DNA from: Nitrososphaerota archaeon | Lineage (GTDB): Archaea; Thermoproteota; Nitrososphaeria; Nitrososphaerales; UBA57 | Assembly (NCBI GenBank): GCA_013378375.1 | Contig: JACAFT010000004.1 | Span: 1 to 49,568, forward strand | Length of the DNA: 49,568 bases | Reading direction: 5' to 3' | Shown here: piece after piece, positions 23,010-46,204 of the stretch | Layout: every line of letters starts with the position of its first letter | Numbering within the stretch: position 1 is the first letter of the stretch | Notes under the pieces: model-generated | What the model saw: only the letters and a program-made list of their open reading frames with translations | Databases searched by the model: none | What the model was told of the DNA's origin: nothing | Made by a program: the position numbers and the translations under genes

Positions 23010-23882
23010 TTATTTTTTAGAAAATTTTTGTTCCAATTTATTAAAGTTATCATAATCAACAAGTTGATTAAATATATCAAAAGTAGTTAGATTTTTTTCA
23101 ATACCAACAGAAGTATTGTGTTTTTTAAGAAAAGTAAGTGCGTCAATCATGGCTTTAGTAGATGCGTATAAAGAAGTTAATGGAAATAAAATAATTTTAA
23201 ACCCTATTTTCTTAGCTTTTTTAAAAGGTATCATAGGAGTTTTACCTCCTTCTAATTGATTCAACAACAAAGGAAGTTTTACTTTTTTTGCAATAATTTC
23301 TAATTCATCAAGTTTATTGGGCGCCTCGATAAACAATAAATCAGCTCCAGCTCTCTTATAACTTTTAATTCGTTCTATTGCCAGATCAACACCATCAACA
23401 GCCAAGCTATCTGTTCTGCCAACAATAACCAAATTTGATTTTTCTTCTTTACGACTCTGAACTGCAGCACGAATTTTTGATTGCATGTCTTCAATAGAGA
23501 TTACTGATTTTCCTTTCATATGTCCGCATTTTTTTGGCCAAACCTGATCTTCTAATATCAATCCTGCAGCGCCAGAACGAATATAATTTTTTACGGTTCT
23601 CATAGTATTCAATGTATTTCCATAACCTGTATCAGCATCTGCAATAACAGGTATATCAATAGAATTACAGATAGATGAGACTCTTTCATTCATTTCGGAA
23701 AAACTTACTAAACCAATATCAGGAACGCCAAGTAATGTAGCTGCAGTTCCATAGCCAGTATGAAATACAGTATCAAAACCAACTTGTTGGGCAATCTTTG
23801 CACTTAAAGCGTCATAAATACCAGGCACCAGAATGGTATCATTATTTTGTAGAATTTTACGAAGGGATTTTGATTTATCCAT
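23010..23882 (-). CDS. Isocitrate lyase/PEP mutase family enzyme (2-methylisocitrate lyase-like)
   Basis: PG.YDA.SA, DADTGYG, EDQV.PKKCGH, RTD, GAD..F.EA. Confidence 0.9.
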   Translation of the reverse strand: MDKSKSLRKILQNNDTILVPGIYDALSAKIAQQVGFDTVFHTGYGTAATLLGVPDIGLVSFSEMNERVSSICNSIDIPVIADADTGYGNTLNTMRTVKNYIRSGAAGLILEDQVWPKKCGHMKGKSVISIEDMQSKIRAAVQSRKEEKSNLVIVGRTDSLAVDGVDLAIERIKSYKRAGADLLFIEAPNKLDELEIIAKKVKLPLLLNQLEGGKTPMIPFKKAKKIGFKIILFPLTSLYASTKAMIDALTFLKKHNTSVGIEKNLTTFDIFNQLVDYDNFNKLEQKFSKK

Positions 23883-27217: not shown

Positions 27218-27487
27218 ATGAGACAGTACAAAGTTGTTGCAGAAAGTACAAAAAAATTATTTGAAGAAGAATTGAATAAATTAGCAGAAGAAGGTTGGGA
27301 AATTATACATTATGGAAATTCAGTAAGTGTAGGATCAACAAGATCAAACACAATGGCATGTTTTAGTGCAATTTTAGAAAAAGAAAAAACAATAACTCGA
27401 AAAAAAGTAAAAACAAGTTCTAATAAAAAAAAGAAATCTACTGAAAAAAAAACAGATACATCATCAAATGAGTATTCAACAAACTAG
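27218..27487 (+). CDS. Small DUF4177-like protein with a Lys-rich tail
   Basis: QYKV...EELNKLAEEGWE motif. ATG at 27218 preferred over the track's 27095, which overlaps menA. Confidence 0.65.
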   Translation: MRQYKVVAESTKKLFEEELNKLAEEGWEIIHYGNSVSVGSTRSNTMACFSAILEKEKTITRKKVKTSSNKKKKSTEKKTDTSSNEYSTN

Positions 27488-28287
27488 TTTTCTATAGGTA
27501 AATCAGCACGAGTACTCCAATCGGCAAAAGAACGGTCATAAATTTTTACATTAGGATAATTACAAAATTGTAAAGCAACAAATGTGTGAGATGCACGCTC
27601 TCCAACCTGACAATAACAAATAATTTCCTTATCTTTAGTAATACCGTATTTTTCAAAGATTTTGTCAAGTTCTTCAATATTTTTAAAAATATACCCATCA
27701 GTACCAACTCCTATTTCCCAAGGAAAATTTATCGAACCAGGAATTCGACCTGCTTTAGGTCCAGCTGCAATAACTCCATTAAATTCGTCAGGGCTTCTTG
27801 TATCAAGTAAAATAGAATTTGAATCACTAAGCTTAGATTGGACATATTCATGATTTACTTTAAAATTTACAAAAGGAGTTGTAATAACAAAGTCAGTAGG
27901 TTGAATCTCAGGTACTTCTTCACTAACAGGATAACCTAATTGCAACCATTTAGAAAACGACGTATCAAGAAATTTTACAGTAATTCCATAATATTTTAGC
28001 GACCAGAACAAACGAGTTGCTGTTGCACCGTTTTTATCCCCGTATACAACAATCACGGAATCATTCGTGATTCCATTTACACTGAGTAATTTTTCTATTG
28101 CGTCTTGAGGAGCAACATCAAAAAAAGAAAGATCTTCAGAAAAACTTAATATTTTTTCATAAGGAATCAAATGCGCCCCAGGTAAATGAGATCGTACATA
28201 CTCACGCGGAGACCTTATATCAAAAGGAACAATATTTGGATCTTCAATATTATCTTTAAGCCAAGTAGCACTAATTAAATCAGTCAA
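27484..28287 (-). CDS. Two-domain rhodanese (thiosulfate/mercaptopyruvate sulfurtransferase)
   Basis: D.R...Y...HLPGA, A.RLFW.L, D.R...EF.G, GRIPGS, catalytic YCQVGERAS, YD.S..DW. Confidence 0.93.
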   Translation of the reverse strand: MTDLISATWLKDNIEDPNIVPFDIRSPREYVRSHLPGAHLIPYEKILSFSEDLSFFDVAPQDAIEKLLSVNGITNDSVIVVYGDKNGATATRLFWSLKYYGITVKFLDTSFSKWLQLGYPVSEEVPEIQPTDFVITTPFVNFKVNHEYVQSKLSDSNSILLDTRSPDEFNGVIAAGPKAGRIPGSINFPWEIGVGTDGYIFKNIEELDKIFEKYGITKDKEIICYCQVGERASHTFVALQFCNYPNVKIYDRSFADWSTRADLPIEN

Positions 28288-28515
28288 TTATTTTTTCCTC
28301 AAATAGAATTTAATATAGTTATTTTCCTCAGTTAGTTCTAATAATTCATGTCCTGAACGATTAGCCCATGCAGGTATATCTTCTTTTGCAGCAGGATCAG
28401 TAGCGGATATTTCCAATATTTGTCCACTCTGCATTTTTGAAATTAGTTGTTTTGTTTTTAAAACAGGGATGGGACAAACAAGTCCTTTAACATCTAATGC
28501 TTGATCAATTTTCAT
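28288..28515 (-). CDS. tusA: TusA/SirA-family sulfur carrier (copy 1)
   Basis: LDVKGLVCPIP (CPxP), ATDP....DI..W. Confidence 0.92.
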   Translation of the reverse strand: MKIDQALDVKGLVCPIPVLKTKQLISKMQSGQILEISATDPAAKEDIPAWANRSGHELLELTEENNYIKFYLRKK

Positions 28516-28543: not shown

Positions 28544-28783
28544 TTATATTTTATTAGTTTTAATTTCTATTTTAAACACACCGTCGTCAATTTCTTTAGA
28601 ACTAAGTATTTCATGTCCGTCTTTTTTTACTGCAGAAGGAATATTGATTGTTGATGGCAAATGATCAACAAGTACTTCTAAAACTTCACCGTTTTCTAAT
28701 TTTTTTAATTCTTTCACAGTAAAAATTACAGGCCAGGGACATACTTGTCCAACAAGATCAAGTTTCTTAGTTTGTGTTTGCAT
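28544..28783 (-). CDS. TusA/YeeD-family sulfur carrier (copy 2)
   Basis: LDLVGQVCPWP, LEVL.DH..S..NIP. Confidence 0.9.
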   Translation of the reverse strand: MQTQTKKLDLVGQVCPWPVIFTVKELKKLENGEVLEVLVDHLPSTINIPSAVKKDGHEILSSKEIDDGVFKIEIKTNKI

Positions 28784-28786
28784 GAA

Positions 28787-30217
28787 TCAGTTTCCACCAA
28801 TTTGTAATTGATTTAACAATATATCAGATGCAATCATGTCTTTTACGTCTTCCGAAACTTTAACAATTCCAGTTCCTTTGCCTAAAATTCGACCAATAAT
28901 TTGTGGATCATAACCCGATGCAGACAAATCAAGACTTATACTTTCTATTATATTTGGACTAGCAATAACAGCTACAGCGCCATTAGTGCCTGCAGTACCA
29001 TTGTCCATTAAGAAATTATCAGTAGCAAATTTAACAAATTCTGGATAACGAAGTGGTAAATTATCAATGGAGATATCAACATTTGCATTATCTGCATGTT
29101 CTTTAAAGATCATTATACCAGGACCAGAAAGATCGCCAGTGGCCAGAATATGTTCGTGAATATCAAAGTTGTTTTCAAAATCAGGCAGATATTTATTAAT
29201 AATTTTTGCGACTGCAAGATTAGGTTCGTTCATAGTTTCAATAACTGAATCCTTAGCACGTTGAACATCTTCAAGAGTATAACCAATGGTTTCAAGGTCT
29301 TTAAGGAAATTTTCGTCGGCTACACAAGACAAAAAGACGTTAATAGGTGCAAGATCGCCAAACGGACGTGTAACGAGAATTTCCATACCAGAATCTAACA
29401 AATTTAATTTAGTTGGAGGTTCTTTTCGTAATGAACCAAATAATGTAGCGCCAATTAGTAATTTATTTCGTTTAGGAGACTCTGCAGAAATTAATTCAAT
29501 TTTATATTTAGATGCGAAATTATCCATGTTTTTTAGAATTTGCGCTTCAATTTCTTGATTTGGTGCATCGACAACGGGCAAAACTTTCAGTTCTTCAAAA
29601 CAACCTAAAGATATTAAATCATTAAGAGAATTTGATACGGCGACATTTGTTTGTTGTTCAGATGAAGGGTCTGCAGTAGGATCAATAATTTGTATAGTAT
29701 CATTATTTGATAAACAATAACCGTCGGATCGTCCTTCTTCGTAAGAAATAAAATCAAAAAGTGCAAATTCTGCGTTTTCATCTCCAGTTATTATTGAATG
29801 TCCTTTTCCAACAGCAAAATTAACATTTGATTTAGATATTGATGTATAAAGACTAGTCAACAATGCTTGGAATTTTTCTTGCTTTTCTGCATTCTTTTGA
29901 AATACTTGTAATAGTGAAATAGCTCGTTTTGGATTAATTCGTCTAAGGTCATCTAAATCAACATCAGGATCAAATGGGTTGTAAATTCTGCGATTTATTA
30001 TTGGGCCACTGTCAGTTAAAGGAAATATATCAGCGTCAACTCTCTCACCAAGAGAAATTCCCATTTGTTTTAAATCCGGCTTTAAATTATGCAAAGTAGG
30101 ATAAACTACTGTATTAAGATCAACTTTAACAGCACAACCTGCCACCCATCTTAAAGGATCCATTCCCATTTCTCGGTATTTTGAGACATTGTCCCAAAAT
30201 TCTTGCTTCGTACTCAT
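28787..30217 (-). CDS. Archaeal SelD-like (selenophosphate synthetase-related, PurM fold) protein, putative thiophosphate synthetase
   Basis: AGCAVK matches the SelD C17/K20 spacing (Cys codon TGT). GHSI, NDTIQIIDP, SNSLNDL (N87/D91-like), TRPFG and GDLSGPG (DVTGFG-like) are present. At 476 aa it is longer than canonical SelD. Confidence 0.85.
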   Translation of the reverse strand: MSTKQEFWDNVSKYREMGMDPLRWVAGCAVKVDLNTVVYPTLHNLKPDLKQMGISLGERVDADIFPLTDSGPIINRRIYNPFDPDVDLDDLRRINPKRAISLLQVFQKNAEKQEKFQALLTSLYTSISKSNVNFAVGKGHSIITGDENAEFALFDFISYEEGRSDGYCLSNNDTIQIIDPTADPSSEQQTNVAVSNSLNDLISLGCFEELKVLPVVDAPNQEIEAQILKNMDNFASKYKIELISAESPKRNKLLIGATLFGSLRKEPPTKLNLLDSGMEILVTRPFGDLAPINVFLSCVADENFLKDLETIGYTLEDVQRAKDSVIETMNEPNLAVAKIINKYLPDFENNFDIHEHILATGDLSGPGIMIFKEHADNANVDISIDNLPLRYPEFVKFATDNFLMDNGTAGTNGAVAVIASPNIIESISLDLSASGYDPQIIGRILGKGTGIVKVSEDVKDMIASDILLNQLQIGGN

Positions 30218-30285
30218 TTGTTAACGAATTAATCAGATACCGATAAATATATAAATATAACGGCATTATAAAATATCGATAAGAT
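30218..30285. promoter_or_regulatory. 68-bp divergent promoter with a shared central TATA element
   Basis: ATAAATATATAAATATAA at about 30243..30260 sits roughly 25-40 nt from both start codons (30217 minus, 30286 plus). Confidence 0.6.
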
Positions 30286-31473
30286 ATGGTCGAATCAAAT
30301 AGAAGAGATTTTCTAAAGTATGGAGTTGGAGCAGCTGTTGGTCTAGGAATAGGAGGAGCAGGTTATCTATCTTCAAATTCTCAAGTTGGCACATTAACAA
30401 GTGAACTTGAACAGGTAAAAGAAAAATTACAAGGAAGAGGACATTTAGGCTATGTCTTTGGCGCTGAAGGATCAATTGCAACTATAGATCTAGCTCGTGG
30501 AAAAGTCTTAGCATCATCAGGACCTACTTGGATTGCAGATGCAGGAAGTATAGACTGGTGTAATCATTATCCGGATGCAAATGGAAATGTATGGGGACTT
30601 GTAAGAAAGCAAGGTCAAATAGGATCTACAATTGCAGTTAATCCAACTACGAATGAATTAGTTCACGATGTTCCATTAGAAGGAAGATGGAGAATAAGAT
30701 TAGGAGAAACAGATGAAGAAGGAAAATACGGATACATGTTAAATGGATATATTGCAGATAAATATGATTCAGAAAAATTTAACGCAGCAAGAGATGAATT
30801 TGAAATTCCATATAATGATATAGATCCAGGAGAAATTCATAAAATCGATCTTCTTAAGGGAGAAGTAGTTGATGTATTACCAGTTCCAAAATTCTGTTGT
30901 GACGTTGCAATAGCACCTGATGGTAAATTGTGGCTTGTAAATCAATTAGAGAGTTTGATTTCAGTAGTAGATACAAAGACATTCACAATTGAAGAACATT
31001 TAGGTACAGAATACTCTGACTATGGTGCAAGTATGATAACAATTTCACCCAACAATGATGTTGCATTTATCGAAGTAAATTCAGCAGGAAATTGGTCGAA
31101 TGCAGCTGGATTCAAGAATTTGGATCCGATTGAAATGGTATGGGATATTCAAGCAAAAGAGATGGTTAAAGAGTTTCCATTAGAAGCAGGTCCACGTACT
31201 AGTGAATTTACACCAGATGGAAAATACTGTGTAGTTAGAACCAGACCAGCATCAATAGTATATGATGTAGAAAGCTTGACTGAAGTCACGAGGATAGAAA
31301 TTGAGAATACTGGACATCCAGCATTTAGTCCTGACAGCACTCTTGCGTATATACCAAATCCTGGAGACAGTTCAGTTGATGTATTCGAGGTAGGATCTTT
31401 CAAGAAGGTCGATAGTCTAAAACTACCTTATTCACCATCAAAGATTGTTCCAATCAATACAAACAATTACTAA
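30286..31473 (+). CDS. Tat-exported YncE/YVTN-like beta-propeller protein
   Basis: NRRDFLK twin-arginine motif plus hydrophobic segment; blade repeats APDG, SPN, TPDG, SPD, ISVVD; Cys motifs WCNH, FCCD. Confidence 0.8.
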   Translation: MVESNRRDFLKYGVGAAVGLGIGGAGYLSSNSQVGTLTSELEQVKEKLQGRGHLGYVFGAEGSIATIDLARGKVLASSGPTWIADAGSIDWCNHYPDANGNVWGLVRKQGQIGSTIAVNPTTNELVHDVPLEGRWRIRLGETDEEGKYGYMLNGYIADKYDSEKFNAARDEFEIPYNDIDPGEIHKIDLLKGEVVDVLPVPKFCCDVAIAPDGKLWLVNQLESLISVVDTKTFTIEEHLGTEYSDYGASMITISPNNDVAFIEVNSAGNWSNAAGFKNLDPIEMVWDIQAKEMVKEFPLEAGPRTSEFTPDGKYCVVRTRPASIVYDVESLTEVTRIEIENTGHPAFSPDSTLAYIPNPGDSSVDVFEVGSFKKVDSLKLPYSPSKIVPINTNNY

Positions 31474-31482
31474 GTGGAATAG

Positions 31483-32553
31483 TTGTCAGAACAAAACAAT
31501 CAGAGATTACTATTAGTTAGCTCAATAATAGTTGGGTTAACAATAGGGTTTTTGATTGGAGGAACTTATGTATACCATTTAGACAATGAAGCAGAAATTA
31601 AACAATATCAAGCAGTAGTATTCAATACAATAGGTAAAACAGCAACTGTAATAGATAACATTCAGCTTAAGACTTTAACCAATATAGAAATTAACATTGA
31701 AGAAGGTCAGTACGGAGCACATTTTAATGAAAATAAGAACAAATTATATTTAATTCACGATGGAGAATCAGAATTATTTACTCTAAATCCACAATCATTA
31801 GAAATTGAATCAAGAGTTCGAGTAGGTCCAAATCTTCAACATGCAGGAATATTTGATGAGACTGGAGAAATATTTTTCTTGATAAGTCGTGACTCTAATT
31901 CTTTGATAATGATTAACACAACAACAGATCGAATAATATCGAGAATTGAAGTTCAAGAGCAGCCGCATCATATTGCACTGTTAAATGATGGAGTAGCAGT
32001 TACAAATACAAAATCACTATCAATATCAATTGTTGATATAATAAAAATGGAGGTCAAAGATAACATCAAGATTGATGCAGAACCATTAATGATAGTTTCA
32101 AACAAGAATGATAAAATGTTTGTAGGTGCAATAAATCCTTCAAAAATTTTCTTTATAGATAATAATGAAGTAAAGAACAGCATAAACTTAGAGTCAGATC
32201 CGCACGGAATAGCATTAACGTTAAATGGAGATAATCTTCTTGTGACTATACCTGAAGATGACAAAATATTAATAATAAATATGAAAGGAGAGATAGTGAA
32301 AGAACTAATGACAGGGAGTTTTCCGCATAATATAGATATAGATCCTGATGGAAGATACGGATACATCAGCAACAGTAATGATGCAAGTGTATCAATAATT
32401 GATTTAACAAATTTTGAAATTGTTGCAACATTAGAAACCGGAAACGGATCTCATAATGTACAATTTTACAATATATTGAATAGCAATACTCAATTGAACA
32501 AAATAAAAGACAATAACAAAATAATTAGTGCGAATTTCAATTGTGGGGGTTAG
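31483..32553 (+). CDS. Membrane-anchored YncE/YVTN beta-propeller with His-rich blades and C-terminal CGG
   Basis: N-terminal TM; repeats VGPNLQH, QPHHIA, DPHGIA, FPHNID, GSHNV, VSIID; ends ...ANFNCGG*. Confidence 0.85.
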   Translation: MSEQNNQRLLLVSSIIVGLTIGFLIGGTYVYHLDNEAEIKQYQAVVFNTIGKTATVIDNIQLKTLTNIEINIEEGQYGAHFNENKNKLYLIHDGESELFTLNPQSLEIESRVRVGPNLQHAGIFDETGEIFFLISRDSNSLIMINTTTDRIISRIEVQEQPHHIALLNDGVAVTNTKSLSISIVDIIKMEVKDNIKIDAEPLMIVSNKNDKMFVGAINPSKIFFIDNNEVKNSINLESDPHGIALTLNGDNLLVTIPEDDKILIINMKGEIVKELMTGSFPHNIDIDPDGRYGYISNSNDASVSIIDLTNFEIVATLETGNGSHNVQFYNILNSNTQLNKIKDNNKIISANFNCGG

Positions 32554-32556
32554 AGC

Positions 32557-33654
32557 ATGATAGAATATAATAATATTTTTTCATTAGGCGTGACAGTCTT
32601 GATTGGACTTGGTTTTGGAATACTTCTACAGAAAGGACGTTTTTGTTTTACAAGTGCATTGAGAGATTTTATCGCATTCAAAGATACAAGAGTACTAAAG
32701 GGAGTAATTATCGGAATTATTACAATGATGGCAGGTACTAGTTTAGCATACGTTTTGGGAGTTTCAAGTTCTAATTTCTGGGTATCAAATTATGGATTGT
32801 CAAATATCATAGGAGGATTCATCTTTGGAATAGGCATGGTTTATGGCGGAGGTTGTGCATCTGGAACATTGTATAGAGCAGGAGAAGGATATTTACATTA
32901 TTGGTTAGTGCTAATATCAGCGTGTGTTGGGTATGTAATATTTGCCGCATTATTTTCTGGATTATTTCTACCATACTTTTTCATTCCATTACAAATATTC
33001 GAAGGCTATAGTATAATTAGAAGTTTAGAAGTGTTAGCTCCTCTAGTACCAATATCAATAATATTAGGATTAGTAATTTATCTAAGAAAGAAAAATCAAT
33101 TAGATTTATCACAAGAAATAAGCAAGGTTCAATTTTCAAGTATTACGGTTAAGAAAATAAAATCAGAATGGGATGCAAAAATTGTTGGTTTAGGAATGGG
33201 AATACTAGCAACATTTTGGTTTGTTGTTTGGGGCACATTAAGTGTTACAGGTCCACAAGCAAGATGGGTAGGTTTAGCATACAGCAACATAGCAGGAATA
33301 GAAGTATTAGAACAAAATATGTACTGGAACAATGTTGTATTCAATGAAGGAAATTTTGCAATTAGTTTAGACATGATAATGTTAGTGTGTTTAATTTTTG
33401 GAGCATTTATATCTGCATACATGAGTGGAGATTTTAAAATAAGAACAATTAAATCTAAGAGAATACCCAATGCAGTATTAGGAGGACTAGTTATGGGATT
33501 TGGATCAAGAATGGCACCAGGATGTAATATTAGTAACACATTTAGCGGATTAGCATTTCTATCAGTTGCAGGATTTATAACATCATTAGGTTTAATATTA
33601 GGAGTATATGTTGCAACACATTGGATGTTTAGAAAAACAGGTTGCGCAATTTAG
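32557..33654 (+). CDS. YeeE/YedE-family sulfur-compound (thiosulfate) transporter
   Basis: RFCF, GG.IFGIGM...GGCASG.L, GG..MGFG.R.A.GCN (three conserved Cys); multi-TM. Confidence 0.93.
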   Translation: MIEYNNIFSLGVTVLIGLGFGILLQKGRFCFTSALRDFIAFKDTRVLKGVIIGIITMMAGTSLAYVLGVSSSNFWVSNYGLSNIIGGFIFGIGMVYGGGCASGTLYRAGEGYLHYWLVLISACVGYVIFAALFSGLFLPYFFIPLQIFEGYSIIRSLEVLAPLVPISIILGLVIYLRKKNQLDLSQEISKVQFSSITVKKIKSEWDAKIVGLGMGILATFWFVVWGTLSVTGPQARWVGLAYSNIAGIEVLEQNMYWNNVVFNEGNFAISLDMIMLVCLIFGAFISAYMSGDFKIRTIKSKRIPNAVLGGLVMGFGSRMAPGCNISNTFSGLAFLSVAGFITSLGLILGVYVATHWMFRKTGCAI

Positions 33655-33666: not shown

Positions 33667-33945
33667 ATGTCAAAAGAAATAGAAATATCAAATGAGGAAA
33701 TTACTGAATTGGAAACCAATTCGAGTTCAATAGACATGGAAGGAGAAGTTTGTCCTTATCCTCAAATCATTGCGCGAGAAGAACTAAAGAAAATAGAACC
33801 TGGAGGAATTGTAATTATTAAAACAGATCATGTAATGGCAACTAAAGCAGTACCTCAATCAGTAATTGAAGAAATATCAAAATATGGTATTTGGAAATCA
33901 GGAGCAGGTCAATATAAAATAGTATTGTGGAAAAAAAGCAAATAA
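33667..33945 (+). CDS. TusA/YeeD-family sulfur carrier (copy 3, partner of YeeE)
   Basis: IDMEGEVCPYP, TDH..A...VP; directly after YeeE; GGAG upstream. Confidence 0.88.
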   Translation: MSKEIEISNEEITELETNSSSIDMEGEVCPYPQIIAREELKKIEPGGIVIIKTDHVMATKAVPQSVIEEISKYGIWKSGAGQYKIVLWKKSK

Positions 33946-33995: not shown

Positions 33996-35498
33996 TTGTC
34001 ACTTAGAATTGCATATGCTGGAAGTATACAAATTATAACTCAATTCGCTACACTGTTTACAGGTCTAGCTTTTGTCATCATAATTACACGAAACTTATCA
34101 GTAGAAGAATTTGGGCTTTGGCAGGTCTTAGGAAACACAATTGGACTGGCGGTAATCCCAATATTCCCAATTGGATACTGGGCTCTAAGGAATATTTCAC
34201 GTGGAGAAGATGTAGGAAAAACTGCAGTATATTCTGGTATTATATCCATTCCAATAATCATTCTCGGATATATTATACTATTAACGTTTGCATCTACAAT
34301 ATTTGAAGCGGGATTTAATTCACCAATATTATATCTGGCAGTTATTGCAATGGTTCAAATACCATTTTTAGTATTAATTGAACCATTCAAATCAATAATA
34401 CGCGGAACACGTCCTCAATTTATAGGTTATTCATCATTAGGTTTTGAAATTGCAAAAGTGAGTGTAGCCTATTACTTAGTACATATCAACAGTTTATCAT
34501 TAATCGGCGCAATAATATCATTAGCTGCGGCACAACTAATTCAAGTTCTTATCATGTATTATGGTTCGTATAATAGAATTCGTGGTAAATTTCAAATTAA
34601 TGTAGCACGTTCTTGGATTTCAGCATCATGGATTCCATTTTTTGGTTTTGGCGTCAGTAGAATATTTTTATTTGATTCTTTAATTGTTTCTCTACTTGCA
34701 GGTACAACTATAATAGTTGGACTTTATGCAGCATGTAAGACATTTACATCAATAGTAAGATATAGCGAAATATTTCAACGAATTTTGTATCCAAAATTAA
34801 TGAAAGATAAACTTTCCAGTGATGTCACAATGACTCTAAAACTACAAACATTGGTACAAGTTCCACTCGCTATAGGAGCTTTCATGCTTGCAGAACCGCT
34901 TTTAGGTATATTAAAAGCAGATTATGTACAAGTTGCAAATGTACTTCGTCTATTAATCATTGTAGCAATCTTTGAAGGAATAGAAAATGCAGTGCAAAAC
35001 GTTCTAATAGGTTCAGAGGATTCAGACAGAGATATCAATAATCTTAAATTTAAAATCTTAAGGAAAACATGGTTATTCAAACTCCCACTTATTGACGTAT
35101 TCAAATCTTTACTTTATGTAGGAGGATTGGCCGCAATAATACTTATTTTCAAAAATACAACAGACAACATTACTTTAGCTTTATACTGGGGAATTCTTTA
35201 TGCAGGAATAGTAATTCCATTTACAATTTTTAAATACATAGCAGCTCGTTCAGTAATGCCTTTTGTCTTTCCAAAAACTCAAGCAATAATATACTCAATT
35301 GGTGGTGTAATAATGGTGTTATTCTTACAATTTTATAAAAATACTTTTCAATGGACGCAATCAGGAATATTAGAAACAATCATATATATAATTCCTCCAG
35401 GAATAATTTCAGTAGGAATCTATGTAATTTTTGTATATATCTTTGAAAAAGACTTTAGAATACTTGTTCAAAATCTTGTAAAAAATATATCCAACTAA
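33996..35498 (+). CDS. Oligosaccharide flippase (Wzx/MOP family)
   Basis: TRNLS.EEFG.W, about 13-14 hydrophobic segments; starts the glycan cluster. Confidence 0.8.
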   Translation: MSLRIAYAGSIQIITQFATLFTGLAFVIIITRNLSVEEFGLWQVLGNTIGLAVIPIFPIGYWALRNISRGEDVGKTAVYSGIISIPIIILGYIILLTFASTIFEAGFNSPILYLAVIAMVQIPFLVLIEPFKSIIRGTRPQFIGYSSLGFEIAKVSVAYYLVHINSLSLIGAIISLAAAQLIQVLIMYYGSYNRIRGKFQINVARSWISASWIPFFGFGVSRIFLFDSLIVSLLAGTTIIVGLYAACKTFTSIVRYSEIFQRILYPKLMKDKLSSDVTMTLKLQTLVQVPLAIGAFMLAEPLLGILKADYVQVANVLRLLIIVAIFEGIENAVQNVLIGSEDSDRDINNLKFKILRKTWLFKLPLIDVFKSLLYVGGLAAIILIFKNTTDNITLALYWGILYAGIVIPFTIFKYIAARSVMPFVFPKTQAIIYSIGGVIMVLFLQFYKNTFQWTQSGILETIIYIIPPGIISVGIYVIFVYIFEKDFRILVQNLVKNISN

Positions 35499-35508
35499 AG
35501 AACAAAAA

Positions 35509-36126
35509 TTATTTCCATGCAACAATAGTACCTGCAAGCGCACAAAACCGTTGATTAACTGCACTTAATGAAAATATGTAAGGAGTAATAATTGAATCCA
35601 ACGTAGTCTGTTTTTCACGGCCCTTAATTCCGAAGCCTCTCACATTATAACCACGTGTCACAAAATCCTTGTATATCCAAGAAGACTTATGTCGCAATGG
35701 TTCAATGTCAGGATCATTACAGAGACTTTTTTTGTGTGAATGTAATGTTGTAGGTGCAGTAACAATATGATGTTTAGAAATTCTTTCAAGTTCAGATAAT
35801 AAATGATTGCCTTCATTTTTTTCAAGATGTGCTAAAACACCACTAGCAATTCCAATATCAATACTTTTATCGTTATGAGGTAATTTGCTTTTTCCAATAT
35901 CAAGTTTATTCATCGTTTCATAAGCATATCCAAGAGACTTTGCATAATCCAAAGCTGGTTGATAAGAATCATAACCATATATTTCAATAGCCTTGTGTGG
36001 ATGATCTAATTTTATTGCAAAACCTAACCGTCCAAAACCCATACCAGCATCAACAATTTTACAAGATTCAAGATTATCAATCCAAGAATTTACATGATGA
36101 TTTACATATCTGTTCCACAAAAACAC
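35509..36126 (-). CDS. Class I SAM-dependent methyltransferase
   Basis: IVDAGMGFG, LP..D.S.D, VLAHL, H.S.W. Confidence 0.8.
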   Translation of the reverse strand: MFLWNRYVNHHVNSWIDNLESCKIVDAGMGFGRLGFAIKLDHPHKAIEIYGYDSYQPALDYAKSLGYAYETMNKLDIGKSKLPHNDKSIDIGIASGVLAHLEKNEGNHLLSELERISKHHIVTAPTTLHSHKKSLCNDPDIEPLRHKSSWIYKDFVTRGYNVRGFGIKGREKQTTLDSIITPYIFSLSAVNQRFCALAGTIVAWK

Positions 36127-36127
36127 A

Positions 36128-37342
36128 TCACCTATGATTAATTACTCTCAAATTTGGCATAGGAATAATATAATTCAAATTTGGATGTTTTTCTTCAACT
36201 TTAGCAATAATTTCATCTGCGTAATTCCATGCAAAAATCATTAAATAATCTGGCGTTTCATCTTGTAATATTTCTGGACCTGTTATCGGAATATGACTGC
36301 CAGGTGTAAATAGTCCTTGTTTTAATGGGGAATCCTCTATAATTAATTCAACATTACTATTGTCTAATCCAATTGAATTAATCATAGTACTAGATTTTGC
36401 TGGCGCCCCATAACCAAAAATTCTTTTTTTCTCGTTGCTTAATCTGTTAAATAATTCTCGAATCTCATTAATGTTATTCTGAAGTTGGTCATTAAATTTC
36501 TCCAATGTATGTAAATCATCGATTCCGTTTTGTTTTTCTTCTTTTAGTAAATCGTCAACACTATGATGTCTAGGATTATTTGTTTTAGAAATATAACCAC
36601 GGATTGATCCTCCGTGTGTTGGAATCTTTTCAACTTTGTATACATTCATATTATGTTTATCAAATAAATTAATCATTGAATGTACAGTATAATACAACAC
36701 ATGTTCATGATATATATTGTCAAACGTCATATCTTTAATCATATCTGCAAAATACTGTACTTCGACAATGTAAGTTCCATTTTCTGACAATAATGACTTT
36801 ATATTTTCAATGATATCATGATATTCGTCCAAATGTGCAAAAACATTTGATGCAACGACTATATCAGCATGACCGCTATCGGAAATAATTTTATCAACAA
36901 TCTCTTTATTAAAATACGAACATAGAGTTGTAAGTCCATTAACATTAGCTTGTTTAGCCAGATTAGCCGCAGGTTCTACTCCAATTGCCTCACAACCCAG
37001 TTCTAACAATGGTTTTAATAACACTCCATCATTTGAACCAATATCCACTACGATTTTCGGATTAAATTCAGATTTTAACTGATTAGCTAATTCTGTGAAA
37101 TGATTTCTCAATCCTCCTGAAATAGAAGACGCATATGCATAATCTAGAAATAATTTATCCCTAGGAATATAACTCTCTTCAGTCAATTGTACAAGCAAAC
37201 AATTCTTACAACAAGTCACGTCTAAAGGATAAGAAATTTCTTTATCAAAGTCATCTTCTTTAAGAAAGGCATTTGCAGGTGGTTGACGTTTTAATGAAAT
37301 GAATTCTAAGAATTCTTTGTGATTACATGATCTGCATCTCAA
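36128..37342 (-). CDS. NDP-hexose C-methyltransferase (Zn-binding N-domain), paralog 1
   Basis: CRSC, CKNC.LVQL, DIGSNDG, NVFAH, YHEH, HGGS.R, GYGAPAK, AWNY. Confidence 0.92.
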   Translation of the reverse strand: MRCRSCNHKEFLEFISLKRQPPANAFLKEDDFDKEISYPLDVTCCKNCLLVQLTEESYIPRDKLFLDYAYASSISGGLRNHFTELANQLKSEFNPKIVVDIGSNDGVLLKPLLELGCEAIGVEPAANLAKQANVNGLTTLCSYFNKEIVDKIISDSGHADIVVASNVFAHLDEYHDIIENIKSLLSENGTYIVEVQYFADMIKDMTFDNIYHEHVLYYTVHSMINLFDKHNMNVYKVEKIPTHGGSIRGYISKTNNPRHHSVDDLLKEEKQNGIDDLHTLEKFNDQLQNNINEIRELFNRLSNEKKRIFGYGAPAKSSTMINSIGLDNSNVELIIEDSPLKQGLFTPGSHIPITGPEILQDETPDYLMIFAWNYADEIIAKVEEKHPNLNYIIPMPNLRVINHR

Positions 37343-38064
37343 ACTTCCGGCACCCTGATTATTGGTTCTTGGTCTTTTATAATAACAACATCTGAACCAT
37401 TAGATACATCAAGATCACCCAACAATATCCTTGAGATTATATCAGTGATTCTCGACGTAGTTTGTTGATTTTGTGCATCACTCTGTCCAAATACCATCGC
37501 CCTCATTCCAGTATTAACTCCTGCAGGAGAGATTGAAATACACTTAATATCTGTATCTTGAACTTCTTTTGCCGCAGATTCTGTTAAACCTCTTACAGCA
37601 AATTTCGCAGCAGTATATGCTGATAATTTAGGTACGGCTCGTCTTCCAGCACGTGACGACATGTTAATTATTGTTCCTGAATTATTTCGTTTCATCACAG
37701 GCATCACATGTTTTATCATATTGAATGTAGGTAGTAAATTATCTTTTACAATGGAACTTAACATATCTGAACTAATATCTTCAACTAAAGCTAAATTATG
37801 CGCTACCCCTGCGTTGTTGATTAGAATATCTATACTATCTTCTTTTTGTATAATTCCTTTAATATATTTCTCGACGTTTTTTTCATTAGATAAATCTAAT
37901 AATTCAAAAATACATTCCTGTTTGTCTTTTGTTGTTATCTCTCTTTCGTTTCTTGATGAAGCATACACAATTGCTCCTTCTTGAATAAAATATCGTAATA
38001 ATGCATGTCCAATTCCACTAGAAGATCCAGTCAGAATAATTCTTTTATTTTCAAATGCTTTCAT
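37339..38064 (-). CDS. Short-chain dehydrogenase/reductase
   Basis: TGSSSGIG, INNAG, SS, YTAAK, P...NT.M. Confidence 0.92.
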   Translation of the reverse strand: MKAFENKRIILTGSSSGIGHALLRYFIQEGAIVYASSRNEREITTKDKQECIFELLDLSNEKNVEKYIKGIIQKEDSIDILINNAGVAHNLALVEDISSDMLSSIVKDNLLPTFNMIKHVMPVMKRNNSGTIINMSSRAGRRAVPKLSAYTAAKFAVRGLTESAAKEVQDTDIKCISISPAGVNTGMRAMVFGQSDAQNQQTTSRITDIISRILLGDLDVSNGSDVVIIKDQEPIIRVPEV

Positions 38065-38432
38065 ATTATTTCATGAGGTATTGTGTCTTTGTCATATTTA
38101 CCTTTAAGCCGTTTCTGTGTTGTCATTGCAAGAAATATAGAACTCTCGAGGAACTTCATTGCGTGTGGAACACCAGGTGCACTATAGACCATTTCACCAG
38201 CTTTCACAGTTACTTTCTCAACTTTTCCACTTTTTCTCTCTTCGTAATATTTCATCTTTCCCTTAATGATATAGGACCAATGTGAGTCTCTTTTATGATA
38301 ATGATTTGCCCTTATCGCACCTTTTTTTGAAGTAATAATTACAATACTGGTTACAGGTTTCTCTAAAATATTTGTTATCTTCCCTCTTTTATCGATAAAA
38401 GATTCTTTTATTTTGATTACTTTAATTGTCAT
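38061..38432 (-). CDS. Cupin-fold sugar isomerase/epimerase (FdtA/WxcM/RmlC-like)
   Basis: F.D.RG.I, RANHYH, PG..HA. ATG at 38432 overlaps the upstream stop (TAATG), so it is preferred over 38450. Confidence 0.8.
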   Translation of the reverse strand: MTIKVIKIKESFIDKRGKITNILEKPVTSIVIITSKKGAIRANHYHKRDSHWSYIIKGKMKYYEERKSGKVEKVTVKAGEMVYSAPGVPHAMKFLESSIFLAMTTQKRLKGKYDKDTIPHEII

Positions 38433-39343
38433 TATAAATTCCTCATCCATTGTACTGTATTTTCTATACCTTCTTCAAAGGATACCTTTGGAGAATATCC
38501 AAAATCCCTTTTTGCTTTGTCAATTGATAGCGATAATTTCATACCTTTCTCGCCAGATCGCCATGGTAAATTCTTAATAGAAGAGCTGCTATTTGTTTTT
38601 TCCAAAACAGTATCAACGATTTCTTTAACAGAATATTCTTTTCCATATGCAATATTGTATACGCCAGAAAGTTCATTATTTGTAATTGAGATAATTGAAT
38701 TCACCAAGTTTTGTACATAATTAAAATCAGTTGATTGACTACCATCACCTTCTATAGTAATTGGAGAATTTTCAAGAGCTTGTTTAATAAATATAGGAAT
38801 AGCTTGTTGTAATCGAGAATACGGACCAAAAAGTCCACTGCTTCTAATAATTGTTATTGGCAATCCAAATGAAGATGAATAACTTTGACACATCAGATCC
38901 GCCGCTGCTTTACTTGCCCCATAAGGATCAGTAGGTCGGAGAGGTTCCTCCTCGACGATAGGTAAATTAGTAGATTTTCCATAAACATTCTTACTACTCA
39001 TATAAACAAGACGAGTATTTTGTTTATTCCTCAATAATTCTAGTACATTAATCAGGCCACTAGTGTTAACATAAAATGAATATTTTGGAGAAGAAAGAAC
39101 AAGAGGAACATCAGCTTGTGCAGCCAAGAAAACAATACAATCAACATTAACTAAATCTTCATCGTTAAGATCTTCTGCACTTTTCCAGAGATAATGAATT
39201 GAATCCATATACGGTTTTATTCTAAGAGCTGATTCCGGCCCAATTATATCAGAAACAGTTACATCGATTTGTTCGTCGAGTAAGCTCTTGATTAGATGTG
39301 AACCTAAAAATCCAGATCCTCCCACAACTAGGAATTTTTTCAT
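38432..39343 (-). CDS. NAD-dependent nucleotide-sugar epimerase/dehydratase
   Basis: GGSGFLG, SS..VYG, YGASK, GDG.Q..DF. Confidence 0.93.
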   Translation of the reverse strand: MKKFLVVGGSGFLGSHLIKSLLDEQIDVTVSDIIGPESALRIKPYMDSIHYLWKSAEDLNDEDLVNVDCIVFLAAQADVPLVLSSPKYSFYVNTSGLINVLELLRNKQNTRLVYMSSKNVYGKSTNLPIVEEEPLRPTDPYGASKAAADLMCQSYSSSFGLPITIIRSSGLFGPYSRLQQAIPIFIKQALENSPITIEGDGSQSTDFNYVQNLVNSIISITNNELSGVYNIAYGKEYSVKEIVDTVLEKTNSSSSIKNLPWRSGEKGMKLSLSIDKAKRDFGYSPKVSFEEGIENTVQWMRNL

Positions 39344-39460
39344 TGTTAAGTTAGAAATTCCCAGACATTATATATGAATCTTCAGGATTGTCGTGTTAAT
39401 AATTCCAAAATTTTGGTTATAAACAGAAATTTCATATTGTTAGACAGGTATGAATAATAT

Positions 39461-40234
39461 ATGAAAATTGTAGGAGCCATGCAAATAGGAGGCAATTGTT
39501 CATGGATCTTAGATTCTAGTCTAAAAAATCTAAGTTCATTAGTTGATGAGATTGTAGTTGTTGGAACAGGAAACATACCAGAAGAAACAAGGAAAATTAT
39601 CGCAAATTATGATAAAATTGTTGATAGTCACTTTGACATCAACATAGCTAATAGAATTGAATGGAATGATATGAATAAACTATTAAATATGGCACAAAAG
39701 AGGCAAGCAGATTGGATACTGTTCATGGACGCTGACGAAACTTTTGAACCTCGACTTGCAAAAGAGATACGACAACTGGTAAAGAATTCCACAGCAGGTA
39801 TGTATAGATTTAAGAGACATTGGTTGTGGAAAGATACAAATCATTACAGGGTAGATCGTCCTGATAAATTTTCTACAATATCATTTAACACTTATTTGGT
39901 TCGTTCAAACTCATCACTGGTATTTCCTAATCCTGCTGGAAAAATATTAAAAAGAATAATAAAACATGTATCAGGAAAAGAAAAACTACGTCCATATTTT
40001 GGAAGAGATCCAATAACTGGTGTTAAAGGTAAAGTTATTGAAACAGATATAATATTACTGCATCACGCGGCATTAAATTGGTCACAATTCATACAGAATC
40101 AGATCTGGTACGCCACACTAATTTCTAAAAGACAACCCAAACGAAAGGAAGAAGAAATTGTAAATCAGTTTTATAGTATTATCGATGAATCAACATTAAA
40201 ACTTGAACAAGTAAAACCTGAATGGTTTGAATGA
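39461..40234 (+). CDS. GT2-like glycosyltransferase
   Basis: VDEIVVV, DWILFMDADE, LLH. Confidence 0.75.
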   Translation: MKIVGAMQIGGNCSWILDSSLKNLSSLVDEIVVVGTGNIPEETRKIIANYDKIVDSHFDINIANRIEWNDMNKLLNMAQKRQADWILFMDADETFEPRLAKEIRQLVKNSTAGMYRFKRHWLWKDTNHYRVDRPDKFSTISFNTYLVRSNSSLVFPNPAGKILKRIIKHVSGKEKLRPYFGRDPITGVKGKVIETDIILLHHAALNWSQFIQNQIWYATLISKRQPKRKEEEIVNQFYSIIDESTLKLEQVKPEWFE

Positions 40235-40251
40235 AGACAGTATTGAGATGA

Positions 40252-41145: not shown

Positions 41146-41153
41146 AAATAGAT

Positions 41154-42389: not shown

Positions 42390-42479
42390 ACATTTACCCA
42401 CATTCATTATATCTAATAACCTTTATTTTTCAGTGAATACCGACATACTAAAATTACTGATTAACCAATTTATTTCAAC

Positions 42480-45159: not shown

Positions 45160-45223
45160 CAGTCATTAATTTTTTTTCCACTTGATAAATGTTCATATTA
45201 ATTAACAGAATATTAATTTAATA

Positions 45224-46150: not shown

Positions 46151-46204
46151 ATTTATCAATGTATTTGTAAATTAATCAATTACAGGATCAGGAGGCGTAT
46201 TGAT

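What the first reader, a model, noticed from the sequence alone, without database searches (positions are those of the whole stretch)
28787..30217. SelD-like family member outside its known hyperthermophile range
Seen: it keeps CxxK and the Asp/Asn metal-ATP motifs but is about 130 aa longer than canonical SelD, and GHSI lies before rather than after the N..ND motif. From recall, this long form is described from sulfur-metabolising Crenarchaeota that lack selenium traits. Its presence in a very AT-rich, presumably non-thermophilic archaeon would argue for a general biosynthetic role, such as thiophosphate supply for tRNA or cofactor thiolation.
Basis: partly seen in the sequence, partly recalled or inferred. 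Interest (0 to 1): 0.7.

Follow-up and report, generated by a model that had tools for sequence, protein, structure and literature searches.

The report
SelD-like sulfur enzyme in marine thaumarchaeon
This gene is an intact member of the little-studied SelD-like family, found here in a cold-ocean heterotrophic archaeon rather than a hot-spring one, and it sits in a sulfur-carrier gene cluster that points to sulfur assimilation rather than selenium use.

Summary
The ORF at 28787-30217 (-) is real, 476 aa, and a full-length member of NCBIfam NF038049, the SelD-like family of Li et al. 2014 (547.6 bits, cut-off 250). It is not canonical SelD (16 and 49.9 bits against cut-offs of 125 and 291). GKGHSI is family-invariant and lies in a ~100-aa insert. 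The host is a ~1 Mb, 31% GC marine thaumarchaeon. Its nearest named relatives are dark-ocean heterotrophic Thaumarchaeota MAGs. No canonical SelD, SelU, SepSecS or YqeC was found, and no sulfite reductase, ATP sulfurylase or real PAPS reductase. The gene heads an operon with two TusA genes and a rhodanese. A diverging operon encodes two exported beta-propellers, a YeeE-type transporter and a third TusA. A TusA gene lies within 5 kb in 60 of 80 family loci. A complex model places the partner TusA's cysteine loop beside the CxxK loop (0.66; best control 0.01). Groundwater relatives place sulfite reductase directly downstream. Most likely it is an ATP-dependent sulfur-activating enzyme fed by TusA in reduced-sulfur assimilation; the thiophosphate product is inferred, not shown. 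The range extension is new to the literature I searched, but database annotation already reflects it.

The parts
28787..30217 (-). SelD-like protein, 476 aa. PurM/SelD fold with an N-terminal C28xxK31 loop, a ~100-aa family-specific insert (about residues 64-170) carrying the invariant GKGHSI, and an intact set of Asp/Asn residues.
   Evidence: ORF. NF038049 at 547.6 bits over positions 2-464 of 465. Model with pLDDT 94.4. Best fold matches are selenophosphate synthetases. Conserved residues.
28544..28783 (-). Partner TusA-family sulfur carrier, 79 aa, active-site Cys15 in the motif GQVCPWP. It starts 3 bases after the SelD-like stop codon.
   Evidence: Pfam TusA 71.7 bits. A TusA gene is directly adjacent and co-oriented with SelD-like in 49 of 80 loci. 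Complex model 0.66 against best control 0.01.
28288..28515 (-). Second TusA-family carrier, 75 aa. In relatives it is paired with the rhodanese.
   Evidence: Pfam TusA 90.8 bits. The Rhod-TusA pair is kept next to SelD-like in L095-L098 and L101.
27484..28287 (-). Two-domain rhodanese sulfurtransferase, 267 aa. It abuts the TusA gene with no gap.
   Evidence: Pfam Rhodanese 120 bits in two stretches. A rhodanese lies within 5 kb of SelD-like in 25 of 80 loci.
30218..30285 (.). AT-rich 68-bp spacer between the two diverging operons. It is presumed to hold both promoters.
   Evidence: Sequence read. Promoter function is inferred only.
30286..31473 (+). Beta-propeller protein, 395 aa, with an N-terminal twin-arginine-type signal (RRDFLK followed by a hydrophobic stretch). 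First gene of the diverging operon.
   Evidence: Translation. Weak YncE/lactonase-type propeller matches. Found only in the marine clade loci. That RRxFLK marks a Tat signal is from recall.
31483..32553 (+). Second YVTN/YncE-type beta-propeller protein, 356 aa, with an N-terminal hydrophobic anchor.
   Evidence: Present in 7 marine-clade loci, window included.
32557..33654 (+). YeeE/YedE-family sulfur-compound transporter, 365 aa.
   Evidence: Pfam Sulf_transp 190.8 bits, full length. Matches to YedE/FdhT (164 bits) and TsuA (131 bits) are both below their cut-offs. A YeeE gene lies within 5 kb of SelD-like in 27 of 80 loci.
33667..33945 (+). Third TusA-family protein, 92 aa, placed after the transporter in the way YeeD follows YeeE.
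   Evidence: Pfam TusA 38.8 bits. Weak YedF and YeeD matches below cut-off.

Best explanation
The gene encodes an intact SelD-like enzyme. It has the ATP-using PurM/SelD fold and works on sulfur, not selenium. Proposed working, step by step. (1) Reduced sulfur enters through the YeeE-type transporter with its own TusA, possibly after the two exported propeller proteins have acted on it outside the cell. (2) The rhodanese and the second TusA carry it as a cysteine persulfide. (3) The partner TusA, encoded 3 bases downstream, docks on SelD-like against surfaces formed partly by the family-specific insert and helices, and hands the sulfur to the mobile C28xxK31 loop. (4) SelD-like spends ATP to convert it into an activated form. 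By analogy with selenophosphate synthesis this would be thiophosphate or an enzyme-bound equivalent. (5) That form feeds cysteine or cofactor synthesis. The host genus lacks sulfate reduction, so this cluster would be its route for using imported reduced sulfur. Shown here: family membership, fold, intact motifs, conserved gene neighbourhoods, and absence of the searched selenium and sulfate-reduction genes. Supported only by a model: the TusA docking. Inferred: ATP use, the direction of sulfur transfer, the product and its acceptor.
For: Membership and fold: NF038049 at 547.6 bits against a cut-off of 250. The model has pLDDT 94.4, with only loop 26-28 below 50. The ten best fold matches are selenophosphate synthetases, E 5.9e-16 to 1.7e-14. 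The SelD residues for ATP and metal binding and the Cys/Lys loop are conserved. Sulfur context over 80 family loci with a SelD-like ORF, counted within 5 kb: TusA 60, YeeE 27, rhodanese 25, DsrE 10, acylphosphatase 42 (25 as a separate gene, 18 fused). A TusA gene is directly adjacent and co-oriented in 49 of 80 loci. Complex model: 0.66 (runs 0.66, 0.71, 0.62) against a best control of 0.01. That mark was reached by 116 of 157 solved complexes and 2 of 215 mismatched pairs. The runs share at least 94% of contacts and the partner pLDDT is at least 84. The interface holds TusA residues 12-17, which include Cys15, and SelD-like residues 22-25, 30, 33, 107-112, 145, 293-304 and 398-405. I know of no solved SelD-TusA complex (recall). 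Link to assimilation: sulfite reductase lies directly after SelD-like-TusA in L095, L096 and L097, which is 3 of the 5 non-marine loci of the same family that I examined. In four genomes of the host genus (86.7-96% complete) no NIR_SIR and no ATP sulfurylase was found. G000 had no PAPS_reduct match, and three relatives had only marginal ones of 18.6-21.2 bits (two reach the 22.5 cut-off only with neighbouring matches added). The sister genus G008 has all three. PMC13374868 states that heterotrophic marine Nitrososphaerota lack sulfite reductase (passages seen). No selenium users were found.
Against: No biochemistry exists for any member of the family, and thiophosphate is not a known metabolite of normal sulfur assimilation. 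The frequent acylphosphatase partner, adjacent or fused in 42 of 80 loci, is unexplained by a thiophosphate model. In this genome the acylphosphatase gene lies elsewhere (contig C2). The host also has a strong cysteine-desulfurase-type gene (494 bits) beside a CysK-like gene (235.6 bits, below cut-off), so ordinary sulfide-to-cysteine chemistry may need no activation step. The best NCBIfam matches of the transporter and the partner TusA are selenium-named families (YedE/FdhT, YedF), though below their cut-offs. 8 of 80 loci carry none of the counted neighbours. The genomes are kin, so the counts overstate independence. The docking is a prediction and the CxxK loop itself is modelled with low confidence.
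Confidence: 0.55

Rival explanations
1. It is a true selenium enzyme. A divergent selenophosphate synthetase would work with a YedE-like importer and YedF-like carrier to serve a selenium use that is not yet known.
For: The SelD fold and catalytic residues are kept. The transporter's best NCBIfam match is YedE/FdhT (164 bits against cut-off 350) and the partner TusA's is YedF (56.8 against 79). YedE and YedF are reported to co-occur with SelD (PMC5322559, search listing and abstract start only). Li et al. did not fully exclude a selenium role.
Against: No canonical SelD, SelU or SepSecS in 5 genomes, no YqeC in 8 genomes of the genus, and no tRNA-Sec among the 13 tRNAs that aragorn called, which is a weak scan. 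In relatives the family sits next to sulfite reductase, and its degenerate branch sits next to cysH-sat. All selenium-named matches are below cut-off. In the tree the family is separated from SelD by a branch with 100% support.
Confidence: 0.07
2. It is an ATP-dependent PurM-type enzyme that modifies a group held on the TusA cysteine or on a small acyl compound. This would be a HypE-like dehydration or an acyl-phosphate-forming step, with acylphosphatase as co-worker, and not thiophosphate synthesis.
For: Acylphosphatase is fused or adjacent in 42 of 80 loci. HypE, ThiL and PurM are the next-best fold matches after SelD. A family profile gives a borderline hit to HypE among solved structures (E 0.0036). 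Li et al. proposed an acyl-thiophosphate model. That HypF carries an acylphosphatase domain and works with HypE is from recall.
Against: HypE's model scores 17.9 bits against a cut-off of 251.6. The protein ends in ...LQIGGN and has no C-terminal cysteine. The N-terminal Cys-x-x-Lys loop is reported as specific to SelD and SelD-like within the superfamily. No carbamoyl-transfer genes appeared in the neighbourhoods.
Confidence: 0.15
3. It is an accessory of energy-yielding sulfur metabolism (sulfur or thiosulfate oxidation, or sulfur reduction), as first suggested for the hyperthermophiles.
For: DsrE genes occur in 10 loci and SQR/FCSD-type flavoprotein genes in 8 loci, all in Sulfolobales or Thermoproteales. 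Rhodanese-TusA-DsrE cascades feed sulfur-oxidising complexes (PMC11094781, search listing and abstract start only). Li et al. found co-occurrence with APS reductase in Thermoproteales.
Against: The window and its marine relatives show no sulfur-oxidising or sulfur-reducing enzyme next to the cluster. The published descriptions call these organisms aerobic heterotrophs without sulfate reductases (PMC7300363, passage seen). The closest non-marine relatives pair the gene with an assimilatory-type NIR_SIR protein. I did not search the genome for sHdr, Sox or sulfite-oxidising enzymes.
Confidence: 0.1

Closest known systems
SelD-like family of Li et al. 2014 (BMC Genomics 15:908) = NCBIfam NF038049 'SelD-related putative sulfur metabolism protein' (model name SelD_rel_HyperS)
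   Same: Full-length match well above the cut-off. Same length class, same CxxK loop and Asp/Asn residues, same GKGHSI and NNDTIQIID signatures. Same SirA/TusA neighbour, and the host has no selenium traits among those searched.
   Different: The host is a marine, AT-rich, small-genome thaumarchaeon and not a hyperthermophilic sulfur-metabolising crenarchaeote. Identity to Sulfolobales and Thermoproteales members is 35-43%. No acylphosphatase is fused or adjacent. The partner TusA lies downstream and lacks the second cysteine of the crenarchaeal partners (DHLPSTINIP instead of DNPPSCENVP). The neighbours are a rhodanese, a YeeE transporter and exported propellers.
Canonical selenophosphate synthetase SelD/SPS (selenide, water dikinase; TIGR00476, PRK14105; PDB 3u0o, 2zod, 2yye, 3fd5)
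   Same: Closest solved fold. N-terminal flexible Cys-x-x-Lys loop. Equivalents of the metal- and ATP-binding Asp/Asn residues. C-terminal domain alignable at 99.5% probability.
   Different: About 130 aa longer, with a ~100-aa insert between the first two Asp motifs. The canonical GGH(T/S) position is not conserved. SelD models score 16 and 49.9 bits against cut-offs of 125 and 291. It forms a separate clade. No enzymes that use selenophosphate were found in the genome.
YeeE/YeeD (TsuA/TsuB) thiosulfate uptake pair and the YedE/YedF genes linked to SelD
   Same: A Sulf_transp-family membrane protein followed by a small TusA-like protein, placed beside a SelD-type enzyme.
   Different: The matches to the curated TsuA, YeeD, YedE and YedF models are all below cut-off. 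The substrate is unknown. The pair is co-transcribed with two exported beta-propeller proteins, which I have not seen described for those systems (recall).
HypE with HypF ([NiFe]-hydrogenase maturation: a PurM-type ATP enzyme acting on a cysteine-bound group, with an acylphosphatase domain in its partner)
   Same: PurM-type fold. At family level there is a link to an acylphosphatase domain and to a cysteine-bearing carrier.
   Different: No C-terminal cysteine, HypE model far below cut-off, no carbamoyl-transfer domains nearby. This comparison rests on recalled knowledge of HypE and HypF.

Membership tests
SelD-like (NF038049; Li et al. 2014) | Score at or above the curated cut-off of the family model, over its full length | tested here: met
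   547.6 bits against cut-off 250. Residues 6-472 match model positions 2-464 of 465. Same result on the genome.
SelD-like (NF038049; Li et al. 2014) | [quoted passage not shown] | tested here: met
   C28-A-V-K31. Both residues are invariant in 22 sequences and at least 90% conserved in 138 rows.
SelD-like (NF038049; Li et al. 2014) | Conserved Asp and Asn residues equivalent to the metal- and ATP-binding residues of SelD | tested here: met
   D61, D173, N196, D200 and D362 are present and invariant. N196/D200 align with the SelD N/D pair and D362 lies in TGDLSGPG opposite SelD's TDVTGYG. The placing of D61 and D173 rests on motif comparison by eye, because the insert prevents an automatic alignment.
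SelD-like (NF038049; Li et al. 2014) | Forms a branch separate from canonical SelD | tested here: met
   Quick IQ-TREE of 93 rows. 89 SelD-like rows are split from 4 SelD rows by a branch with 100% SH-aLRT. The window falls in an 8-row marine clade (100) inside a 13-row thaumarchaeal clade (99).
SelD-like (NF038049; Li et al. 2014) | SirA/TusA-type gene close by | tested here: met
   Two TusA genes directly downstream. A TusA gene lies within 5 kb in 60 of 80 loci.
SelD-like (NF038049; Li et al. 2014) | Host without known selenium utilisation traits | tested here: met
   No canonical selD over cut-off, no SelU and no SepSecS in G000, G001, G004, G005 and G008. No YqeC in 8 genomes of the genus. 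SelB, PSTK and YqeB were not searched. The tRNA-Sec scan was weak. G000 is 86.7% complete.
SelD-like (NF038049; Li et al. 2014) | Host a hyperthermophilic sulfur-metabolising crenarchaeote (part of the original description, not of the model) | tested here: not met
   The nearest named relatives are marine Thaumarchaeota/Nitrososphaerales MAGs. Genome GC is 31.3%. The IVYWREL fraction is 0.394 against 0.434-0.459 for thermophile loci.
Canonical SelD (TIGR00476 / PRK14105) | Score at or above the curated cut-off | tested here: not met
   TIGR00476 16 bits against 125. PRK14105 49.9 bits against 291.
Canonical SelD (TIGR00476 / PRK14105) | GGH(T/S) motif after the N..D motif, and a length near 310-350 aa | tested here: not met
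   The canonical GGHT aligns with a non-conserved stretch. The protein is 476 aa.
HypE (TIGR02124) | Model cut-off and a C-terminal cysteine that carries the substrate | tested here: not met
   17.9 bits against 251.6. The C-terminus ...LNQLQIGGN has no cysteine. That HypE needs a C-terminal Cys is from recall.

The most novel reading that the evidence does not exclude
SelD-like together with its dedicated TusA partner is a thiophosphate (activated-sulfur) synthetase. It would form a previously unrecognised step of archaeal sulfur assimilation, acting after sulfite reduction or after import of reduced sulfur. In the abundant heterotrophic marine Thaumarchaeota, which have lost sulfate reduction, this module, the YeeE importer and the exported propellers would be the cell's main entry point for sulfur.
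Probability: 0.2. Interest if true: 0.85.

Novelty: new member of a known kind. Interest (0 to 1): 0.5.

Why it matters
The family has been known only from genome comparison since 2014, and its function is still open. If it makes an activated sulfur compound, that would be a sulfur counterpart of selenophosphate synthesis and a new step in sulfur assimilation. Four things found here sharpen the question. First, the intact enzyme is kept by every sampled genome of a marine and groundwater thaumarchaeal family (14 of 14), so it is not an adaptation to heat or to sulfur respiration. Second, it travels with a distinct TusA partner that a complex model docks at the catalytic loop. Third, its neighbours in relatives are assimilatory sulfate-reduction genes. 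Fourth, the host genus has lost sulfate reduction but kept this module beside a sulfur importer, which suggests how one of the commoner dark-ocean archaeal groups obtains sulfur. There is also a practical point. JGI names these proteins 'selenophosphate synthase', and one NCBI record names one 'selenide, water dikinase'. Surveys that count selD as a marker of selenium use may therefore wrongly credit Thaumarchaeota with it.

Tried and rejected
Pfam gave no hit for the protein at E <= 0.01, and only NCBIfam recognised it. A family profile against solved-structure sequences gave only a borderline HypE hit (E 0.0036); the fold search was needed to show SelD as the nearest structure.

The 500-aa ORF at 33996-35498 looked at first like part of the sulfur operon. 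It has no family hit, reads as a multi-pass membrane protein, adjoins a sugar-modification cluster and is kept in only 4 loci. I left it out.

An ORF cluster labelled c17 turned out to be opposite-strand ORFs that my greedy ORF picker chose over TusA genes, so the TusA counts are lower bounds. Locus L024 gave no SelD-like ORF in my calling and drops out of the 80.

AmoA (PF12942) was not found in 5 genomes, but the control genomes did not ring either, so that search shows nothing. Aragorn found only 13 tRNAs in the genome, so the lack of a tRNA-Sec is weak.

Metatranscriptome contigs from 4 runs of 3 studies match, at 95% identity or more, pieces of SelD-like (29058-29292, 29726-29948, 29923-30111) and more of the two propeller genes (30313-32081). 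They come from RNA libraries, but contigs cannot show transcription, and uncovered parts mean nothing.

I first took the universal homologue in family f15 as proof that the enzyme is general in soil ammonia oxidisers. Alignment showed that this branch has lost the catalytic residues, so I dropped that claim.

I did not fold the insert alone or the propellers, and I had no access to model coordinates, so the position of GKGHSI relative to the active site is unknown.
Full report
**1. What is at the coordinates.** One search lists a single ORF at 28787..30217 on the minus strand, with an ATG start and 476 aa.
- C28-A-V-K31 (CxxK)
- G137-K-G-H-S-I142
- S195-N-S-L-N-D200
- further Asp residues at 61, 63, 155, 173, 179 and 362

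Pfam does not recognise the protein. NCBIfam does. NF038049, 'SelD-related putative sulfur metabolism protein', scores 547.6 bits against a cut-off of 250 and matches end to end. The canonical SelD models score 49.9 bits (cut-off 291) and 16 bits (cut-off 125), and HypE scores 17.9 bits (cut-off 251.6).

**2. Relation to SelD.** An AlphaFold model built on a 138-row alignment is confident (pLDDT 94.4, pTM 0.92). Only residues 26-28, the CxxK loop, fall below 50. Its ten best matches among solved structures are selenophosphate synthetases of human, E. coli, Aquifex and Leishmania (E 5.9e-16 to 1.7e-14, 15-17% identity). ThiL, HypE and PurM follow.

A profile-profile alignment with four canonical SelD proteins (checked as SelD) aligns residues 181-460 with SelD 68-329 at 99.5% probability.
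- It puts N196/D200 on the SelD Asn/Asp pair.
- It shows that the canonical GGHT has no conserved counterpart here.
- The invariant GKGHSI sits instead in a ~100-residue insert between D61 and D173.

In a tree of 93 rows the 89 SelD-like rows are split from the 4 SelD rows by a fully supported branch (quick search, SH-aLRT only, several long branches flagged).

**3. How rare the family is.** The family is rare. A profile search of 1.84 billion representative proteins found 182 hits at E <= 0.001 and 95 at E <= 1e-30.

**4. The organism.**
- The window lies in a genome of 918,577 bases in 46 contigs, 86.7% complete and 31.3% GC.
- The closest homologues (80-85% identity) include one named 'Nitrososphaerales archaeon'.
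- The closest named genome loci (83-84% identity, same gene order) are MAGs titled Thaumarchaeota, Nitrososphaerales or Nitrosopumilales archaeon.
- Three of those names (SAT139, UBA223, ASW8.bin1) stand in the genome list of the paper that described heterotrophic marine Thaumarchaeota, next to its HMT bins (PMC7300363, supplements searched).
- The genus has a RuBisCO large subunit, as that group is reported to have (recall).
- An amino-acid proxy for growth temperature (IVYWREL fraction; the formula is recalled) gives 0.394 for this genome. Loci of Sulfolobales, Thermoproteales and Desulfurococcales treated the same way give 0.434-0.459.
- The host is therefore not a thermophilic crenarchaeote.

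**5. Selenium and sulfur inventory.** In G000 and four relatives (91-96% complete):
- No canonical selD was found over the cut-off; the best matches, 18.7-34.8 bits, are weak matches well below the 125-bit cut-off, in ORFs of 224-338 aa apart from G008's own SelD-like gene at 18.7 bits.
- There was no SelU and no SepSecS.
- YqeC was absent from 8 genomes of the genus.

In the four genomes of the host genus no sulfite/nitrite reductase domain and no ATP sulfurylase was found. For PAPS reductase, G000 gave nothing and the three relatives gave only marginal matches of 18.6-21.2 bits (two of them reach the 22.5-bit cut-off only when neighbouring matches in the frame are added). The sister-genus genome G008 has all three. 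This agrees with a 2026 paper stating that heterotrophic marine Nitrososphaerota lack sulfite reductase (PMC13374868, passages seen). The genus does have a strong cysteine-desulfurase-type gene next to a CysK-like gene.

**6. The neighbourhood in the window.** SelD-like is followed on the same strand by three genes:
- a TusA gene 3 bases downstream
- a second TusA
- a two-domain rhodanese that abuts the second TusA

Across a 68-bp AT-rich spacer, a tight operon runs the other way (gaps of 9, 3 and 12 bases):
- a beta-propeller with a twin-arginine-type signal
- a second, membrane-anchored propeller
- a YeeE/YedE-family transporter
- a third TusA

**7. The neighbourhood across the family.** A scan of one genome per prokaryote species found 101 relatives, of which 80 loci were kept. 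I called ORFs in these and in the window and clustered them. 80 of the 81 loci have a SelD-like ORF.

| Neighbour within 5 kb of SelD-like | Loci out of 80 |
|---|---|
| TusA | 60 |
| Acylphosphatase, any form | 42 |
| Acylphosphatase, separate gene | 25 |
| Acylphosphatase, fused | 18 |
| YeeE | 27 |
| Rhodanese | 25 |
| DsrE | 10 |
| ThiF-type | 4 |
| None of these | 8 |

Many loci are cut by contig ends, and the genomes are related, so these are rough lower bounds and not independent counts.

A TusA gene is directly adjacent and co-oriented in 49 of 80 loci: 24 downstream, 30 upstream, 5 with both. I aligned 33 of those 54 adjacent TusA proteins, picked by eye as the partner type and to drop near-duplicates. 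They share L8, D9, G12, C15, P16, P18, D40, S44, P49 and G56.

**8. Docking test.** The partner TusA was folded with SelD-like.
- The score was 0.66 (three runs: 0.66, 0.71, 0.62) against a best control of 0.01.
- That mark was reached by 116 of 157 solved complexes and 2 of 215 mismatched pairs.
- The runs agree in at least 94% of contacts and the partner pLDDT is at least 84. My own alignments were used, so the calibration holds only roughly.
- The interface includes TusA residues 12-17, the loop with the active Cys15.
- On SelD-like it includes residues 22-25, 30 and 33 (flanking the CxxK loop), 107-112 and 145 (in the insert), 293-304 (helices that are longer than in SelD) and 398-405 (just before the invariant TAGTNGA motif).
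- This supports the idea that the extra sequence of the family forms a docking site for TusA, but does not show it.

**9. Distribution within Nitrososphaeria.**
- Among 41 relatives, all 14 other genomes of the window's family have the gene. Only 2 of 26 genomes from the other families of the order have it.
- Among 301 genomes of the class, one large family has none (0 of 180). Family f15 has a match in all 39 genomes. Two others have 3 of 10 and 1 of 14.
- The f15 homologues are named by their sources as Candidatus Nitrosocosmicus proteins. NCBI calls them 'hypothetical protein' and JGI calls them 'selenophosphate synthase'.
- These homologues score 209-307 bits. Alignment of 13 of them shows they have lost K31, D61, the GKGHS motif, D173, N196, D200 and D362, while 11 of 13 keep the cysteine. 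They are probably not enzymes.
- Even so, they lie next to cysH-sat in 12 of 13 loci, and directly adjacent in 10.
- In the intact branch, sulfite reductase follows SelD-like-TusA in L095, L096 and L097, but not in L098 or L101.

**10. Interpretation.** The shared theme is handling of assimilatory sulfur. The marine genus has lost sulfate reduction but kept SelD-like, its TusA partners and the rhodanese. Its neighbours are a sulfur-compound importer and exported propellers, whereas relatives have sulfite reductase immediately downstream of the SelD-like-TusA pair.

I therefore rank the explanations as follows:

| Explanation | Estimated probability |
|---|---|
| ATP-dependent sulfur activation fed by TusA (thiophosphate as product is an inference by analogy, about 0.3 on its own) | 0.55 |
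| HypE-like or acyl-phosphate chemistry, which would better explain the acylphosphatase link | 0.15 |
| A role in energy-yielding sulfur metabolism | 0.10 |
| A hidden selenium function | 0.07 |

**11. Novelty.**
- The family and the thiophosphate idea were published in 2014 (PMC4210487, Results and discussion read in full). That paper reported the family only in Sulfolobales and Thermoproteales, and as absent from Desulfurococcales, bacteria and eukaryotes.
- Reviews of 2022 and 2026 keep that description (passages seen).
- My full-text searches found no paper on SelD-like in Thaumarchaeota. 'SelD-like' + 'archaea' gave 5 papers. 'Thaumarchaeota' + 'selenophosphate' gave 4, none on this subject by title; I read the one passage in PMC9727886. 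'Nitrososphaera' + 'selenophosphate' gave 0. 'SelD-like' + 'TusA' gave 0. A four-term search gave 1 unrelated paper.
- The two papers on the heterotrophic marine group do not contain the terms SelD, thiosulfate, TusA or rhodanese in their main text. I did not search their supplements for these terms.
- Subscription-only papers, such as the 2022 review of the selenophosphate synthetase family cited, could not be read.
- Database annotation already labels such proteins in several non-thermophile MAGs.
- The gene is thus a new member of a known kind. The conserved TusA partner, the links to assimilatory genes and the degenerate soil-archaeal branch are observations I did not find in print.

**12. 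Limits.**
- There is no experimental evidence for any member of the family.
- I could not inspect model coordinates.
- The tree is a quick search.
- The genome is incomplete.
- The neighbourhood counts come from related genomes and truncated contigs.

Noticed in passing
L100, L102-L113 (family f15 of the class search): All 39 sampled genomes of family f15 carry a divergent SelD-like homologue. Sources name its relatives Ca. Nitrosocosmicus. In the 13 I aligned it has lost K31, D61, GKGHS, D173, N196/D200 and D362, while 11 of 13 keep the cysteine. It still lies next to cysH-sat in 12 of 13 loci. It looks like a non-catalytic relative retained beside sulfate-assimilation genes.
   Followed up: partly
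L022 (record titled Acidobacteriota bacterium, 406,733-base contig) and P0105 (Candidatus Acetothermia bacterium): Intact SelD-like genes occur in records labelled as bacteria. L022 has the order SelD-like, TusA, rhodanese, acylphosphatase, TusA, and groups with the thaumarchaeal and Hydrothermarchaeales branch. This is either gene transfer to bacteria or mislabelled bins. It contradicts the 2014 statement that the family is absent from bacteria.
   Followed up: no
window 30286-32553 (+): Two YVTN/YncE-type beta-propeller genes, one with a twin-arginine-type signal and one membrane-anchored, are co-transcribed with the YeeE-type transporter. They occur only in the marine clade. Marine metatranscriptome contigs match them at 95% identity or more. 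Their function is unknown.
   Followed up: partly
window 15651-16748 (-): A bacterial/eukaryotic-type S-adenosylmethionine synthetase (all three S-AdoMet_synt domains) in an archaeal genome. Whether this is usual for the lineage was not checked.
   Followed up: no
window 23010-23882 (-): A PEP mutase / isocitrate lyase family protein (162.7 bits). It could bear on phosphonate or methylisocitrate metabolism.
   Followed up: no
window 33996-47419: A large sugar-modification cluster: a flippase-like multi-pass membrane protein, two C-methyltransferases with zinc-binding domains, epimerases/dehydratases, glycosyltransferases and an asparagine synthase.
   Followed up: no
L100 11801-12601 and its counterparts in L105-L108, L111, L112: A conserved gene of about 266 aa with no Pfam family follows sat in the f15 loci.
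   Followed up: no
L032 and L034 (Pyrodictiaceae / Desulfurococcales MAGs): In these two loci a YjjI-like glycyl-radical enzyme and its radical-SAM activase lie a few genes downstream of the run YeeE, TusA, SelD-like, acylphosphatase, phosphatase.
   Followed up: no
G000 contigs, aragorn scan: Aragorn called only 13 tRNAs in 918 kb. Three of them have odd anticodon loops and are labelled tRNA-???. Intron-containing archaeal tRNAs were probably missed.
   Followed up: no
P0001 against window 28787-30217: The database cluster representative listed as 100% identical differs from the window's translation at two residues in the alignment (N for K near residue 238, G for E near residue 348). This looks like a rounding of identity.
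   Followed up: no
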